Shown: positions 1-4,471 of the stretch, in pieces
Position numbering within the stretch: the first letter of the stretch is position 1
Layout of the letters: each line of letters begins with the position of its first letter
Virus record (IMG/VR): IMGVR_UViG_3300029138_000071
Origin: a virus
Taxonomy: Duplodnaviria; Heunggongvirae; Uroviricota; Caudoviricetes
DNA length: 4,659 nt
Strand: one strand, 5' to 3'
Position numbers and translations under genes: made by a program
Notes under the pieces: model-generated
Database searches by the model: none
Seen by the model: only the letters and a program-made list of their open reading frames with translations
What the model was told of the DNA's origin: nothing

Positions 1-637
1 CCCCGCCGTGGTGTGGAAGAGGATGTTTACTGGTGGGTGCCGTCCTTCAACGAGCCGACAGCCTTCACGCCCGGCTCCGTGTTTCACCTGCTGGAGCCGG
101 ATATTAATCAGGAGCTGTACGGCCTGCCGGAATATCTCAGCGCCCTTAATTCTGCCTGGCTGAATGAGTCGGCCACGCTGTTTCGCCGCAAGTATTACGA
201 AAACGGCGCACATGCCGGATACATCATGTACGTCACTGATGCCGTGCAGGATCGCAACGATATCGAAATGCTTCGCGAAAACATGGTGAAGTCGAAAGGC
301 CGCAACAACTTTAAAAATCTGTTTCTCTATGCCCCGCAGGGGAAAGCCGACGGCATTAAAATTATCCCGCTCAGTGAAGTGGCAACGAAGGACGATTTTT
401 NNNNNNNNNNNNNNNNNNNNNNNCGCTGACCTGCTGGACGCGCACCGCATCCCCTTTCAGTTGATGGGCGGCAAGCCGGAGAACGTCGGGTCGTTGGGTG
501 ATATTGAGAAAGTGGCAAAGGTCTTTGTCCGCAATGAGCTTATCCCGCTACAGGACAGGATCCGCGAGATAAACGGCTGGCTCGGTCAGGAGGTCATCCG
601 CTTTAAAAACTACTCACTGGACACTGACAACGGCTGA
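1..637 (+). CDS. Q: Phage portal protein (P2 gpQ-like), 5'-partial; reading frame interrupted by the assembly gap at 401-423
   Basis: Frame 1 is open from position 1 to the N-run (ORF track 13..429). After the gap the protein continues in frame 2 (ORF track 329..637) and ends at TGA 635-637. The gene ends about 170 bp before the cos site and points toward it, as Q does in P2. The gap is 23 N, not a multiple of 3, so the frame change is an assembly artefact of unknown true length. Protein identity is inferred from synteny, not from recalled sequence. Confidence 0.8.
401..423. other. Run of 23 N: assembly/scaffold gap inside the portal gene
   Basis: Directly visible as n characters at 401-423. 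Confidence 0.99.
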
Positions 638-642
638 ACATC

Positions 643-664
643 GCCGCCTGCGGGCGGCTTTTTT
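643..664 (+). terminator. Rho-independent terminator of the portal gene
   Basis: GCCGCC (643-648), tetraloop TGCG, GGCGGC (653-658), then TTTTTT (659-664), starting 6 nt after the Q stop codon. Confidence 0.8.
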
Positions 665-806
665 ACACCCCGTCATCACGCCCTCACACGCTCACCTCCA
701 CGCAAAACAGCCCGCAGACACACCGACGCCCCGGCACACAATCTAAACGCCATCACGACGCGCTGAGACGCCGAAAAAATAAAATCAGCACCACCGCCAG
801 CGCGCA

Positions 807-825
807 GTGCTTTCCCCGCCTCGCC
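807..825. other. cos site: 19-nt P2-type cohesive-end sequence
   Basis: Plus strand gtgctttccccgcctcgcc is the reverse complement of GGCGAGGCGGGGAAAGCAC, which I recall as the P2/P4 cohesive end. It sits between convergent Q and A, the expected position in a circular or prophage P2 map. Confidence 0.85.
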
Positions 826-1110
826 CGCCCGCTTCACGGGGCGGTTTTAATGCAGTTGCATAGATACTATGGATCCGCACCAGTCCTGACCGCACGCAGC
901 CTGAACGGACATCCCCAACGCATGCAAAAACATTCACTTGTTGCATGCATAGCTTTTTAAGTACGCCATACCGCAACTGTACATTTTTAAGCAATTGGCA
1001 ACTTTAAAAAATTTACATTGCTTTCAAGACCTTATCATCCGTAGTCTCTGTTTTTTACTTTGAGCTACATCAATAAAATCTCAAACATGTTTAATGCAAA
1101 GCCCTTGTTA

Positions 1111-1164
1111 CACAACATAGAATGTATGTCTAGAAACAACGACATACTATATGTTGTGTTTTTC
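1111..1164 (+). terminator. Long imperfect AU-rich hairpin followed by a T-run; candidate intrinsic terminator or structured RNA element
   Basis: Arm cacaacata-gaat-gtatgtc (1111-1130), loop tagaaacaac, arm gacatac-ta-tatgttgtg (1141-1158): 9 bp plus 7 bp of pairing around a small internal loop, then TTTTT (1159-1163). No T-run follows on the minus strand. Confidence 0.4.
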
Positions 1165-1225
1165 CGGCTCTCTGTTCGGTGATATGCCAAATCACTTTGC
1201 GTTTAAACAGAGCATTATTTCAGGG

Positions 1226-1240
1226 CAAGACTTCGCTCAA
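1226..1240 (+). repeat. Direct repeat copy 1 (CAAGACTTCGCTCAA), in the 5' leader of the small ORF
   Basis: Identical 15-mer recurs at 1490-1504; this copy ends 64 nt upstream of the ATG at 1304. Confidence 0.9.
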
Positions 1241-1303
1241 AAGTCATTCCACCTAAGAAGCGCATATACCGGTGGAAGTTGCCCTCTACTTACAGGAGGC
1301 AAT

Positions 1304-1417
1304 ATGAAGAAATGCTATTACTGCATTCTCGTTCTGGCCCTCTTTGGCTATCCAAACGGTAGTCCGAGTGGTTTGTCAGTAAACGTCAGTAATATCAATG
1401 TCAGCATTATGCTTTAA
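1304..1417 (+). CDS. Small hydrophobic protein, 37 aa (MKKCYYCILVLALFGYPNGSPSGLSVNVSNINVSIML); candidate single-pass membrane peptide
   Basis: AGGAGG at 1294-1299, 4 nt before ATG 1304; MKK followed by a 13-residue hydrophobic stretch; stop TAA 1415-1417, then a terminator. The ORF track gives a longer in-frame version from 1151, but that ATG lies inside the hairpin stem and has no SD; an alternative start is ATG 1184. Confidence 0.45.
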   Translation: MKKCYYCILVLALFGYPNGSPSGLSVNVSNINVSIML

Positions 1418-1429
1418 TATGCTTCAAAC

Positions 1430-1459
1430 AAAAAAACCACCTGCCAGGGTGGTTTTTTT
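1430..1459. terminator. Bidirectional rho-independent terminator
   Basis: A-run 1430-1436, stem CCACC (1437-1441), loop TGCCAG, stem GGTGG (1448-1452), T-run 1453-1459. It reads as hairpin plus U-run on both strands, so it can end both the small ORF transcript (+) and the gene A early transcript (-). Confidence 0.8.
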
Positions 1460-1489
1460 GCGCCCATCATCAATACGATGAAAGACTGA

Positions 1490-1504
1490 CAAGACTTCGC
1501 TCAA
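1490..1504 (+). repeat. Direct repeat copy 2 (CAAGACTTCGCTCAA)
   Basis: Identical to 1226-1240. It lies just downstream (on the minus strand) of a promoter-like TTGCGG-17 nt-CATAAT (1538..1533 and 1515..1510). Confidence 0.9.
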
Positions 1505-1612
1505 GACGAATTATGCGTCGACATAAGGTTACCCGCAATGATTTTATTAGACTAAATAGATGGCCTTTTATGACCAGGATCAAACGGCTGTCCTTACCGA
1601 CATGCTAGTCAC

Positions 1613-1650
1613 TCAATAGCATTTAGCCTTCTAATTCAGCATGCTATTGA
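1613..1650. repeat. Perfect 10-bp inverted repeat (TCAATAGCAT / ATGCTATTGA) with an 18-nt spacer
   Basis: 1613-1622 and 1641-1650 are exact reverse complements; no U-run on either side; it lies 37-74 nt beyond the true stop of gene A. Confidence 0.7.
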
Positions 1651-1686
1651 CCTTCTGCTGCCCCATAACTGCTCCGCATAAGCCAT

Positions 1687-3985
1687 TCAATGCCATATCA
1701 AATCACGTTGTATTTTTACTCAAATGGGTAACGAGAACCCCGGCCACTCATCAGCAACCGGATACGTGAATTTTTTCCCGTCATAATTTACGGTCGCGCC
1801 ACGCGCCAGCGCCTCAAGCTCCCATCGTTGCGGCCTGATACCGTTCTGAGCGAGGTCAACGCGGATACGGGTAATTTGCAATCGTTCGACCGGGTCAGTC
1901 TGGCCGACGGTGCTATTTCATGTGGTTTTAACGGGCTTCCGTTTCTTTGCTGACGATTTGGTGTTTTCAGGCCGTGTTTTAATGCATCCCTGAGCGTCCT
2001 CACGACCTCCGGGTCACTCCATTCGATGACACCGTCATCAACCAGATTAAGCACTGCTACGGCGTGCTCAGAGGGTGTGGGAGCCGGTAACGAAGTATCA
2101 CCACCAGTGAGCTTTCCACAGTTATTGACAGGACTCCGAGGCGCGGCGATGCCGCTTTTTAAAGTCAAAGGCTCAACGACCGGAGCTTTCGGCACAATGC
2201 GCCAGTCCGTCGTTCTGGTGATATGAATATGACGCGCGCCGAGATGCGGCGCGTAAATGCCGACCACTCTCTCGACTTCTTCCTCGTACTCGTTAACTTC
2301 ATCCGACGGACTACGGGCGACCCTGACAGTCTGACAATCGCGCGGGACATTTGCCCCACCCTGCGCGCTGATATACAGCGCAAAATCGCCACTGTCTGCG
2401 GCAGCGCGTGCAGCCTCGACGCGTTCGTCAAACTCATCAGCAATGCTGACGCCGCGAGGCAATTTGCGTAGTTCACGGTAAGCCCCCATTGTCGGCAGGC
2501 CAACCGTTTTAAATTGCGGAATGCGCCACGTTGACGCCCATGCGGTAACAGCCGCGGCAGTGTCTTTCAGCGGCCTGCCGGTGTCGTTATCGAGCTGACC
2601 ATCCAGTGCATAGCCATCGATGTTTTTTGAAATGTATTTCGCGATATATCCCGCAGCACCGCCCCGGTTAAGGTGTTTTGCCTGAAAACGGTTTCGCGCG
2701 GCTCCTCTTTCGTCGCCATCCTCTTTGAGCGCATAGCGACGCATGATTTCGATAATCTGGTTACGCTGGCGTGGATTACAAAAAAGCATCATATGCCAGT
2801 GCGGCGTTCCGTCGTGGTGTGGTTCAACAACACGCAAACCGTAGGCCAGTAAATCATTATCCTTGAATGCCGTGCGCATCAGGCTCCAGATACGGCAGAG
2901 ATAACGCTGCGCATCCTTTGGATTAAATGCCTCATCATTCCAGCCGTGACGGTTTTACTTTCGCCTTTTCTGACCTGACGTGTCGGGTGATACTTTGACG
3001 GCGCGGTCAGCGTGATAAACATCCCCACATCACCCTCTGCGGCAGCGTAACGCTCAATACCGGCGATGGTGTTCATCAGCTCCATCCGGCGAATTTCGGG
3101 ATTAGAAATACTGCCCATCACCTTACTGATAAGGTCGATGCGCTCGCCGGTTTCCTTGTTTTCAAGGTCACACGATTTAAGAAATTCCAGATTTGCCTGG
3201 CGGCGCGCACGCACATCACGAATGGCATGTTTACTGGCATAAGGAGAACGGTCTTTATTGACCTCCCCGACAGCAATCAGTAACGCCTCATGCCAGCGCA
3301 TACGCTGGCCTTTAAGCTGATGAGTCCACCACTCATCGTTAAACAGACGGGCAATGGCAGAATATGCCTGCCTCGTGGTCATCTGCCCTTTACGGTATTT
3401 TTTCCAGTAGAGCGGGGAAATATTGAAAGCACGTGCAGCGCCAGCAACATGACCATACAGGTGAGCCTGCGCCTCATCCGTAAACAGCGATTCTTTCTCG
3501 CCATGCGCATCCACCCAGGCATCGCAGAGTTCCTCATACATTATGAAAAGCTGCGATGAGATACGGGCGGCAAACTTTTTCAGCTCCTTGTCATTCATTC
3601 CCGGCAGGCGCGCATAGTGGTCACGCTCTGCCAGAAACAGTAACGACGCGTCGGTGTTCATTTCATGGCGCTGATTCACACGCTCAATGCGCGGCCATAA
3701 ACGCCGCTGAAAAGTGGATGTGAGGAAATAAAACCCGTGCACCGGGCTTTTATTGCGCCGGATGTAGTCATAGCGTGAAGTAAACAGCGAGCGCAAAAAG
3801 TAAGGCAGGCGGTTAATCGTGGATAAAACACCTTGCACCTGACGCATCTCGTCACGTGTAAGGGGTCTTTCGCGCCCGACAGCCTCGCGTGGCGCGTTCC
3901 ATGCATAAGCACCGGTAAACGTCTTACCGGTGCCTGCGGCAAATGCTGACGGAGGGACAAAACGCCCGGAGGCTTTAACGGCCAT
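1687..3985 (-). pseudogene. A: Replication initiation protein gpA (rolling-circle HUH endonuclease, P2 gene A), interrupted by two frameshifts
   Basis: The gene reads as three frame segments: 3985..2879 (N-terminus MAVKASGRFVPP, motif FITLTAP), 2879..1788 (HUH motif PHWHMMLF, tyrosine motif YIAKYISKNIDGY) and about 1887..1687 (ERLQITRIRVDLAQNGIRPQRWELEALARGATVNYDGKKFTYPVADEWPGFS...). The frame changes between codons KTV and HGWNDEAF near 2945-2950 (consistent with a roughly 10-nt deletion relative to my recollection of P2 A) and between RLTRS and ERLQ at 1886/1887 (consistent with a 1-nt deletion). The ORF track's ATG at 4027 is an in-frame upstream alternative start, but it overlaps the preceding gene. 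The final stop is TGA 1689..1687. Confidence 0.85.
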
Positions 3986-4250
3986 ATGAGCCAAAAGCCT
4001 CTGAACAACGCCTGCTGAGTTGCTCAACCTGCGCGTTTAAATCAGCAAAAGACTTTGCGCTTCCGGTCAGAATATCGTGATGCATCATGCCGGAAACGAG
4101 CTGGCTTAATTTCGGGTAATAACCAACCACCGCCAGCCATTCCTGACCGGCGTTTTTACCGCTTTCAGCTCTCTTTTTCTCGTGGAGAATAAACTGAAAG
4201 CTGTCACTGGTAACGACATAACGTTCGCCAATTTCAATACGAATACTCAT
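3975..4250 (-). CDS. Hypothetical early-operon protein (P2 Orf83-like position), 91 aa
   Basis: ORF 4250..3975 with a GGAG SD about 7 nt upstream; its ATG overlaps the upstream gene stop (ATGA at 4250-4247), and its 3' end overlaps the A start by 11 nt. Operon context only; no recognisable domain. Confidence 0.7.
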   Translation of the reverse strand: MSIRIEIGERYVVTSDSFQFILHEKKRAESGKNAGQEWLAVVGYYPKLSQLVSGMMHHDILTGSAKSFADLNAQVEQLSRRCSEAFGSYGR

Positions 4251-4471
4251 GCCATTCTCCGGTAATGCTTGTTTTTTGCTTCAAAGACTGACTGGCATGA
4301 AACACAACGCGTGGCTGACGGATAAGCCGCACGACGGGCAGCAGGTATTGGCGCGTCACACTCTTCGCAAACCAGCGCAGAAACACCGCAATGCTTTACC
4401 CTTGCCGCGTTAATCTGGCGCTCCAGTAATTCAGCCTGTTGTTCCTGAATAAAATCTACGTTGTCCGGCAT
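4247..4471 (-). CDS. DksA/TraR-family C4-type zinc-finger protein (P2 Orf82-like), 74 aa
   Basis: The protein contains C-x2-C-x17-C-x2-C (CEEC...CVSC), the TraR/DksA zinc-finger signature. GGAG SD 6 nt upstream; the start overlaps the stop of the upstream ORF (TAATG). Confidence 0.85.
   Translation of the reverse strand: MPDNVDFIQEQQAELLERQINAARVKHCGVSALVCEECDAPIPAARRAAYPSATRCVSCQSVFEAKNKHYRRMA

What the first reader, a model, noticed from the sequence alone, without database searches (positions are those of the whole stretch)
1687..3985. Replication initiator gene A is split into three reading frames by two frameshifts
The HUH rolling-circle initiator is essential for P2 lytic replication. 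Here motif 1 (FITLTAP) is in one frame, the HUH and catalytic-tyrosine motifs are in a second, and the C-terminal about 66 codons are in a third. Junctions are near 2945-2950 (about 10 nt missing relative to my recollection of P2 A: expected ...KTVQLNHGWND...) and at 1886/1887 (one base missing in a CC run: expected ...RLTRSERLQITRIR...). If real, the prophage is replication-defective (cryptic or domesticated). If artefacts, the assembly has indels, as the N-gap also suggests.
Basis: partly seen in the sequence, partly recalled or inferred. Interest (0 to 1): 0.5.

Follow-up and report, generated by a model that had tools for sequence, protein, structure and literature searches.

The report
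Frameshifted P2 prophage replication gene A
The replication-initiator gene of a P2-type prophage is broken by a 10-base and a 1-base deletion seen in no other public sequence searched, which is ordinary prophage decay or, less likely, a draft-assembly error.

Summary
Gene A (P2 GpA, HUH rolling-circle initiator) lies on the minus strand at 1720..3985. Against P2 and seven other intact relatives it has exactly two gaps. One is a 10-base deletion in codons 346-349 (junction 2949|2950). The other is a 1-base deletion in codon 703 (one C of a CC at 1887). Repairing both gives an intact 758-aa GpA.

As assembled, the gene reads in three frames:
- native residues 1-346, with motif 1;
- native residues 373-703, with HUH and Y450/Y454;
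- native residues 704-758, which is 55 codons, not about 66.

The origin nick site inside A and the cos site are intact.

Neither junction occurs in 5,426 complete E. coli genomes, GTDB species representatives, IMG/VR or JGI metagenome contigs. There are no other indels in 4,636 aligned bases, and all homopolymer runs are correct. That argues against a generally error-prone assembly. However, the N-run is off by one base (a scaffolded draft), and differences from relatives are mostly synonymous. The lesions are therefore either very recent or artefacts.

My estimate is about 0.6 real inactivation giving a replication-dead prophage, and about 0.37 assembly artefact. Either way this is a known kind of event and of low interest.

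The parts
1720..3985 (-). Gene A (P2 GpA homologue, HUH rolling-circle replication initiator), disrupted as assembled: 2,266 bases where intact relatives have 2,277
   Evidence: 96-98% nucleotide identity to intact A genes. Pfam PF05840 Phage_GPA and PHROG 91 'nicking at origin of replication' match the pieces at consecutive profile positions.
2879..3985 (-). Piece 1: native residues 1-346 plus a 22-residue out-of-frame tail (TAGMMRHLIQRMRSVISAVSGA); contains motif 1, FITLTAP, at 2999-3019
   Evidence: Pfam profile positions 1-215 of 321
2947..2950 (.). Junction of the 10-base deletion (coding-strand TCCAGCTTAA lost; native codons 346-349). Placement is ambiguous by 2 bases because of a TC microhomology.
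2877..2881 (-). TGATG: the stop codon of piece 1 overlaps the ATG (native Met373) that opens piece 2. The same sequence is present in all 10 relatives whose fetched stretch covers gene A, so it is a coincidence of native sequence and not an adaptation.
1788..2879 (-). Piece 2: native residues 373-703 plus a 32-residue out-of-frame tail; contains HUH (HWH, 2793-2801) and the catalytic tyrosines Y450/Y454 (YIAKY, 2634-2648)
   Evidence: Pfam profile positions 227-321 of 321
2122..2152 (-). Origin of replication inside gene A. The P2 nick site (NC_001895 position 29892, codon 620) maps to window 2137, and the 31-base context is identical to P2.
1887..1888 (.). Site of the 1-base deletion (one C of a CC on the + strand; native codon 703)
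1720..1886 (-). Piece 3: native residues 704-758 (55 codons) in the third frame. The listed ORF starts at an internal TTG at 1881.
   Evidence: PHROG 91 profile positions 700-749
807..825 (-). cos: the 19-base P2 cohesive end GGCGAGGCGGGGAAAGCAC, an exact match. The window runs across cos, so the source is an integrated or circular form and not virion DNA.
401..423 (.). N-run of 23 inside portal gene Q where relatives have 22 bases; an estimated-size scaffold gap (context for the artefact question)

Best explanation
The window is the Q - cos - short hotspot - A - orf83 - traR segment of a P2-like (Peduovirus) prophage of E. coli or a close relative. Its replication-initiator gene A carries two real, recent, independent deletions: 10 bases at codons 346-349 and 1 base at codon 703.

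The first deletion cuts the catalytic HUH domain between motif 1 and the HUH motif. It stops translation 22 codons later. The second deletion removes the last 55 residues from whatever might restart at Met373. No polypeptide can carry motif 1, HUH and the tyrosines together.

P2 A is essential and cis-acting (established knowledge: the annotation in NC_001895, and the title of Liu et al. 1993 as cited in PMC5694545). It follows by inference that the prophage cannot start rolling-circle replication at its intact origin, cannot be rescued in trans, and is locked in as a defective prophage.

A further inference concerns P4-type satellites. The late genes could still be switched on in trans by such a satellite, because P4 uses P2 late genes without P2 replication.

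What is shown: the lesions, the frames, the motif positions, the intact origin and cos, and the uniqueness of the lesions. What is inferred: that the lesions exist in the DNA rather than only in the assembly, and the phenotype.
For: There are exactly two gaps against eight intact relatives (seven plus canonical P2), and the repaired product is a full-length 758-aa GpA.

The Pfam Phage_GPA profile is split 1-215 / 227-321. The PHROG 91 profile is split 9-359 / 385-698 / 700-749.

No other indel occurs in 4,636 aligned bases. That stretch includes 1,082 non-coding bases and 25 homopolymer runs of 5-7 bases. The 1-base loss is in a 2-base run and the 10-base loss is a clean deletion with identical flanks. 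Neither is typical of homopolymer-type sequencing error.

Complete E. coli genomes contain independently decayed P2-like elements of the same hotspot type with a truncated A (L010 and L011).

A survey of 8,165 P2-like prophages reports that GpA (the paper calls it the P2 'primase') is found as a pseudogene more often than other core genes in defective elements (PMC13586616).

P4 exploits P2 late genes without P2 replication (PMC12239096).
Against: The source is a scaffolded draft: 23 N stand where relatives have 22 bases, which also shifts the frame of Q.

Both lesions are unique. They are absent from 5,426 complete E. coli genomes, GTDB species representatives, IMG/VR and JGI metagenome contigs. 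The truncated proteins are not on record.

There is no sign of relaxed constraint. Against the O121 prophage, differing codons are 17 synonymous to 4 non-synonymous upstream of the first lesion and 16 to 6 downstream. Only 2 window-private substitutions were found. Two indels against at most two private substitutions is a high indel share for natural decay.

Both lesions falling inside A is not significant: A makes up 49% of the window, so the chance is about 0.24.
Confidence: 0.6

Rival explanations
1. Assembly or sequencing artefact. The DNA carries an intact gene A, and the two deletions were introduced by the draft assembly. Possible causes are gap-closing or consensus errors, perhaps made worse by a second P2-like prophage in the same genome.
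For: The window contains an estimated-size scaffold gap that is wrong by one base. Many E. coli genomes hold 2-4 P2-like copies, which makes short-read assembly harder. Both lesions are private to this sequence. The substitution pattern is that of a gene under purifying selection with almost no private changes, as expected if the gene is really intact.
Against: An error rate of 2 per 4.6 kb should also leave indels elsewhere, yet there are none. The 1,082-base non-coding region and 25 homopolymer runs of 5 or more bases are all correct. A clean 10-base deletion with perfect flanks and only 2 bases of microhomology is not a typical Illumina, 454 or nanopore error, and no repeat long enough to mislead a k-mer assembler flanks it.
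Confidence: 0.37
2. The gene still works as a split or recoded gene. Piece 1 and piece 2 would be made as two polypeptides by termination-reinitiation at the TGATG overlap (GGAG lies 4 bases upstream) and would reassemble into an active nuclease. Alternatively, ribosomal frameshifting would restore the frame.
For: The stop of piece 1 overlaps an ATG in the native frame, with a GGAG just upstream. The origin nick site is intact.
Against: The TGATG and GGAG are native coding sequence. They are present in all 10 relatives whose fetched stretch covers gene A, so they were not selected for coupling. 26 native residues (347-372), lying between motif 1 and the HUH motif inside the Pfam catalytic domain, would be missing, and 22 foreign residues would be added. 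The C-terminal 55 residues would also be lost. None of more than 1,500 relatives is split here. No slippery site was sought or seen.
Confidence: 0.03

Closest known systems
Bacteriophage P2 gene A (GpA; NP_046795, NC_001895 28034..30319), Pfam PF05840 Phage_GPA, HUH endonuclease superfamily
   Same: 96.2% nucleotide identity over 2,266 aligned bases. It has the same start codon, motif 1 FITLTAP at residue 323, HWH at 399, and Y450/Y454. The origin nick context inside the gene is identical. Synteny is the same (orf82/traR - orf83 - A - hotspot - cos - Q).
   Different: The window lacks 10 bases in codons 346-349 and 1 base in codon 703, so no full-length product is encoded. The extreme C-terminus and the downstream hotspot differ from canonical P2: there is no orf91, tin or old.
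Intact gene A of E. coli P2-like prophages with the same short A-Q hotspot (e.g. strains M15, elppa4, PK5074, O121 GTVSS-020)
   Same: 97.5-98.0% identity in A and 98.9-99.5% in the hotspot. Outside the two lesions and the N-run the sequences are collinear with no length differences.
   Different: Those genes are uninterrupted 758-codon 'replication endonuclease' genes.
Decayed P2-like remnants next to cpxP in complete E. coli genomes (NZ_CP062868, NZ_CP157115)
   Same: Same hotspot type, and gene A is a pseudogene. They are examples of real decay of this gene in finished genomes.
   Different: There the damage consists of large deletions (A lacks its C-terminus; traR, int and D are fragments) in a remnant of roughly 6 kb. 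Here the gene is full length with two small lesions, which points to a much earlier stage of decay, or to no decay at all.

Membership tests
Phage_GPA (PF05840) / P2 GpA replication initiators | Significant match to the family profile | tested here: met
   Piece 1 scores E 2e-70 over profile positions 1-215. Piece 2 scores E 5.5e-38 over positions 227-321. PHROG 91 'nicking at origin of replication' matches all three pieces in order.
Phage_GPA (PF05840) / P2 GpA replication initiators | One uninterrupted reading frame encoding the whole domain | tested here: not met
   The gene reads in three frames, and the profile is broken between positions 215 and 227. As assembled, the locus is a pseudogene of the family rather than a functional member.
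HUH endonuclease superfamily (Rep class with two tyrosines) | Motif 1 (uuTu), HUH motif, and a Y-x-x-x-Y motif, all in one polypeptide | tested here: not met
   All three motifs are present in the DNA: FITLT at 2999-3019, HWH at 2793-2801, YIAKY at 2634-2648. However, motif 1 is in a different frame and ORF from HUH and the tyrosines.
P2-type origin | Nick-site sequence located within gene A | tested here: met
   The 21-base origin annotated in fiAA91-ss and the 31-base context of the P2 nick site (position 29892) both match exactly at window 2122-2152.
P2-like (Peduovirus) prophage | P2 cos sequence and Q - cos - hotspot - A - orf83 - traR synteny | tested here: met
   The 19-base cos is exact at 807-825. 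Neighbouring genes match DUF5405 and zf-dskA_traR. The window is collinear with annotated prophages.
P2 GpA function | Cis-acting, essential nicking activity at the origin; prophage replication | not testable with these tools
   This needs induction or replication assays. Only the literature and the record annotation were consulted.

The most novel reading that the evidence does not exclude
The two halves of the HUH initiator are made as separate polypeptides through the UGAUG stop-start overlap and reassemble into an active, naturally split rolling-circle nuclease, so the prophage still replicates.
Probability: 0.02. Interest if true: 0.5.

Novelty: already known. Interest (0 to 1): 0.1.

Why it matters
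If the lesions are real, this prophage cannot replicate. Because A acts in cis, a co-resident phage cannot rescue it. It would be a locked-in element that may still provide lysogenic-conversion or defence functions and late genes for P4-type satellites. That is useful for annotating this one genome. It fits the published pattern that the replication gene is pseudogenised more often than other core genes in defective P2-like elements. It teaches nothing new about phage biology. If the lesions are artefacts, they only indicate the quality of this draft assembly.

Tried and rejected
1. Looking for the same lesions elsewhere. Junction queries against complete E. coli genomes found only gapped matches: best 87.5% for the 10-base junction and 98.6% (70 of 71) for the 1-base junction. 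Exact-pattern scans of genome contigs, viral contigs and metagenome contigs gave zero hits for both junctions.

2. Finding the source contig through the truncated proteins, with four start-codon variants. Nothing is on record.

3. Testing for relaxed selection downstream of the first lesion. Synonymous to non-synonymous counts are similar upstream and downstream, and only 2 substitutions are private. There is therefore no evidence of age, and the test does not separate 'recent' from 'artefact'.

4. Testing whether the lesions hit the origin. They do not: the nick site is 250 bases from the 1-base deletion and is intact.

5. Programmed frameshift or split gene. Rejected because the overlap motif is native sequence in all 10 relatives whose fetched stretch covers gene A, and 26 catalytic-domain residues would be lost.

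6. Rfam scan of the window. It returned only sub-threshold chance hits on terminator hairpins.

7. Structure prediction and the large protein searches were not run, because the answer did not depend on them.

Full report
**What is in the window.** The window is a segment of a P2-like (Peduovirus) prophage. It contains, in order:
- the 3' end of portal gene Q on the + strand (1-637), interrupted by an N-run at 401-423;
- the Q terminator;
- the exact 19-base P2 cos sequence at 807-825;
- a short, largely non-coding A-Q 'hotspot' (638-1719);
- on the minus strand, gene A (1720-3985), orf83/DUF5405 (3975-4250), a TraR/DksA zinc-finger gene (4247-4471), and the start of orf81.

Because the sequence runs straight across cos, it comes from an integrated or circular form and not from virion DNA.

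**Checking the observation.** The ORF listing shows gene A in three pieces and three frames: 2879..3985 from the ATG, 1788..2879, and 1720..1881.
- Megablast finds more than 1,500 E. coli prophages and 75 phages covering the gene. They span 2,512 bases where the query has 2,501.
- MAFFT alignment to a P2 isolate (NC_070905), an E. coli O121 prophage and Yersinia phage YpM46 shows exactly two gaps. One is 10 bases (coding strand TCCAGCTTAA) at window 2949|2950. The other is one base (GG to G on the coding strand, CC to C on the + strand) at 1887.
- Against canonical P2 (NC_001895; A = 28034..30319, 761 codons) these fall in codons 346-349 and 703.
- Filling the gaps restores a 758-residue GpA that differs at 10 residues from the O121 protein and at 23 from the NC_070905 protein.
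- Motif 1 (FITLTAP, residue 323, window 2999-3019) is in piece 1. HWH (residue 399, window 2793-2801) and Y450-x-x-x-Y454 (window 2634-2648) are in piece 2.
- Two minor corrections: the third frame holds 55 native codons (704-758), not about 66, and the gene's stop codon is at 1720-1722, not 1687.

**What the lesions do.**
- Piece 1 encodes native residues 1-346 plus 22 foreign residues.
- Piece 2, if translated from Met373, encodes native residues 373-703 plus 32 foreign residues.
- Residues 347-372 are encoded by neither piece, and residues 704-758 sit in the third frame.
- Pfam places the break inside the catalytic Phage_GPA domain: profile positions 1-215 fall in piece 1 and 227-321 in piece 2.
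- PHROG 91 'nicking at origin of replication' matches the three pieces at consecutive positions 9-359, 385-698 and 700-749.
- In HUH nucleases, motif 1, the HUH metal site and the catalytic tyrosines belong to one fold (established knowledge of the superfamily). A product lacking one of them should therefore be inactive.
- The origin lies inside A. The annotated P2 nick site (position 29892, codon 620) maps to window 2137. Its 31-base context, and the 21-base origin annotated in fiAA91-ss, are both identical. The substrate is intact but the enzyme is not.
- P2 A is annotated as essential and described as cis-acting (title of Liu et al. 1993 cited in PMC5694545). Rescue in trans would therefore not be expected. 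This last step is inference.

**Real or artefact?**

*Evidence for real lesions:*
- Alignment of the whole window to the closest complete-genome relatives shows no other indel in 4,636 aligned bases.
- The 1,082-base non-coding hotspot is collinear, with no length difference, with about 100 complete genomes at 98.6-99.5% identity.
- The 1,711 bases upstream of the first lesion align base for base with their best hits, and the 1,229 bases downstream differ only by the single base.
- All 25 homopolymer runs of 5-7 bases have the expected length.
- The 10-base loss is clean, with identical flanks and only a 2-base microhomology. The 1-base loss is in a 2-base run.
- Finished genomes contain independently decayed P2-like elements of this hotspot type with a truncated A.
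- A survey of thousands of P2-like prophages reports GpA as the core gene found more often as a pseudogene than the others (PMC13586616).

*Evidence for an artefact:*
- The N-run is 23 bases where relatives have 22, so the source is a scaffolded draft with estimated gaps. This also shifts the frame of Q.
- Neither junction exists in 5,426 complete E. coli genomes, GTDB species representatives, IMG/VR or JGI metagenome contigs. The truncated proteins are not on record.
- Differences from relatives are mainly synonymous both before and after the first lesion (17:4 and 16:6 against O121). Only two substitutions are private to the window. That gives two indels against at most two private substitutions.
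- Both lesions lying in A is not significant, because A is half of the window.

*Weighing:* I put real, recent mutations at about 0.6, an artefact at about 0.37, and a functional split or recoded gene at about 0.03.

**The split-gene idea.** The stop codon of piece 1 overlaps the ATG of piece 2 (TGATG, 2877-2881), with GGAG four bases upstream. This resembles a translational-coupling signal. The same 18-base string is present in all 10 relatives whose fetched stretch covers gene A, where it simply encodes W-S-L-M-R. It is therefore a coincidence, and any restart product would still lack 26 catalytic-domain residues and the C-terminus.

**Consequences if real (inferred).** The prophage would be replication-dead and locked in, while cos, Q and the neighbouring early genes in the window are intact. 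P4 activates P2 late genes without P2 excision or replication (PMC12239096, citing Six & Lindqvist 1971 and Halling & Calendar 1990). Such a prophage could therefore still help a P4-type satellite. Nothing in the window tests this.

**Comparison with what is known, and novelty.** The locus is a pseudogene (as assembled) of P2 gene A, which belongs to Pfam PF05840 and the HUH superfamily. Frameshifted replication genes in decaying P2-like prophages are documented. This is an already-known kind of event, or else an assembly error, and it deserves a low interest score.

**Seen in passing.** The A-Q interval is the known P2 defence hotspot (PMC9122126). Here it is only about 1.08 kb and carries no annotated gene in relatives. 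It does hold a 37-codon ORF with a strong ribosome-binding site and a terminator, and its differences from a P2 isolate are mostly synonymous. A strong hairpin and a 15-base direct repeat are also present. Details are in the list of things noticed.

Noticed in passing
window 401-423 (within gene Q, 1-637 +): The N-run is 23 bases where three relatives have 22 real bases (TTAATATCAAAAAAGCCAGCGCCG-like). The Q reading frame therefore shifts across the gap. It is an estimated-size scaffold gap, not a sign of a broken Q.
   Followed up: yes
window 1304-1417 (+), with AGGAGG at 1294-1299 and a hairpin plus T-run at 1429-1460: An unannotated 37-codon ORF (MKKCYYCILVLALFGYPNGSPSGLSVNVSNINVSIML) sits in the A-Q defence hotspot. 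It has a strong ribosome-binding site and a perfect 13-base-arm terminator hairpin. Against the 88%-identical hotspot of P2 isolate NC_070905 it shows 5 synonymous and 2 non-synonymous differences, and the stop codon is kept, so it is probably a real small gene. It has no Pfam or PHROG match, and no CDS is annotated there in the five complete-genome relatives whose annotation I read (the other listed hits show none under the match).
   Followed up: partly
window 638-1719: The cos-proximal A-Q hotspot, which usually carries anti-phage systems (old and tin in P2), is only about 1.08 kb here and in about 100 complete E. coli genomes. No annotated gene lies in it. A recent survey says empty main hotspots were never observed for P2 when both main hotspots are considered (PMC13586616). 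This variant looks like a near-empty A-Q hotspot.
   Followed up: partly
window 1226-1240 and 1490-1504: A perfect 15-base direct repeat, CAAGACTTCGCTCAA, occurs 264 bases apart and brackets the small ORF and its terminator. Both copies are nearly conserved in NC_070905. Its function is unknown; it might be a cassette boundary or a regulator-binding site.
   Followed up: no
window 1100-1170 (+): A strong hairpin (10 + 7 base pairs, -25.7 kcal/mol, z = -6.0 against shuffles) is followed by TTTTT. It looks like an intrinsic terminator or a small-RNA element upstream of the small ORF. The outer stem is conserved in NC_070905 and the inner stem is not.
   Followed up: partly
L010 4422-5753 and L011 4422-5753 (NZ_CP062868, NZ_CP157115): Two complete E. 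coli genomes carry a P2-like remnant of roughly 6 kb next to cpxP, with the same hotspot type. A is truncated, and traR, int and D are fragments. It is an independent and more advanced stage of decay of the same phage lineage.
   Followed up: partly
window 2877-2881 (-): After the 10-base deletion, the shifted frame ends in a TGA that overlaps the native Met373 ATG (TGATG), with GGAG four bases upstream. It looks like a translational-coupling signal but is native coding sequence, present in all 10 relatives whose fetched stretch covers gene A.
   Followed up: yes
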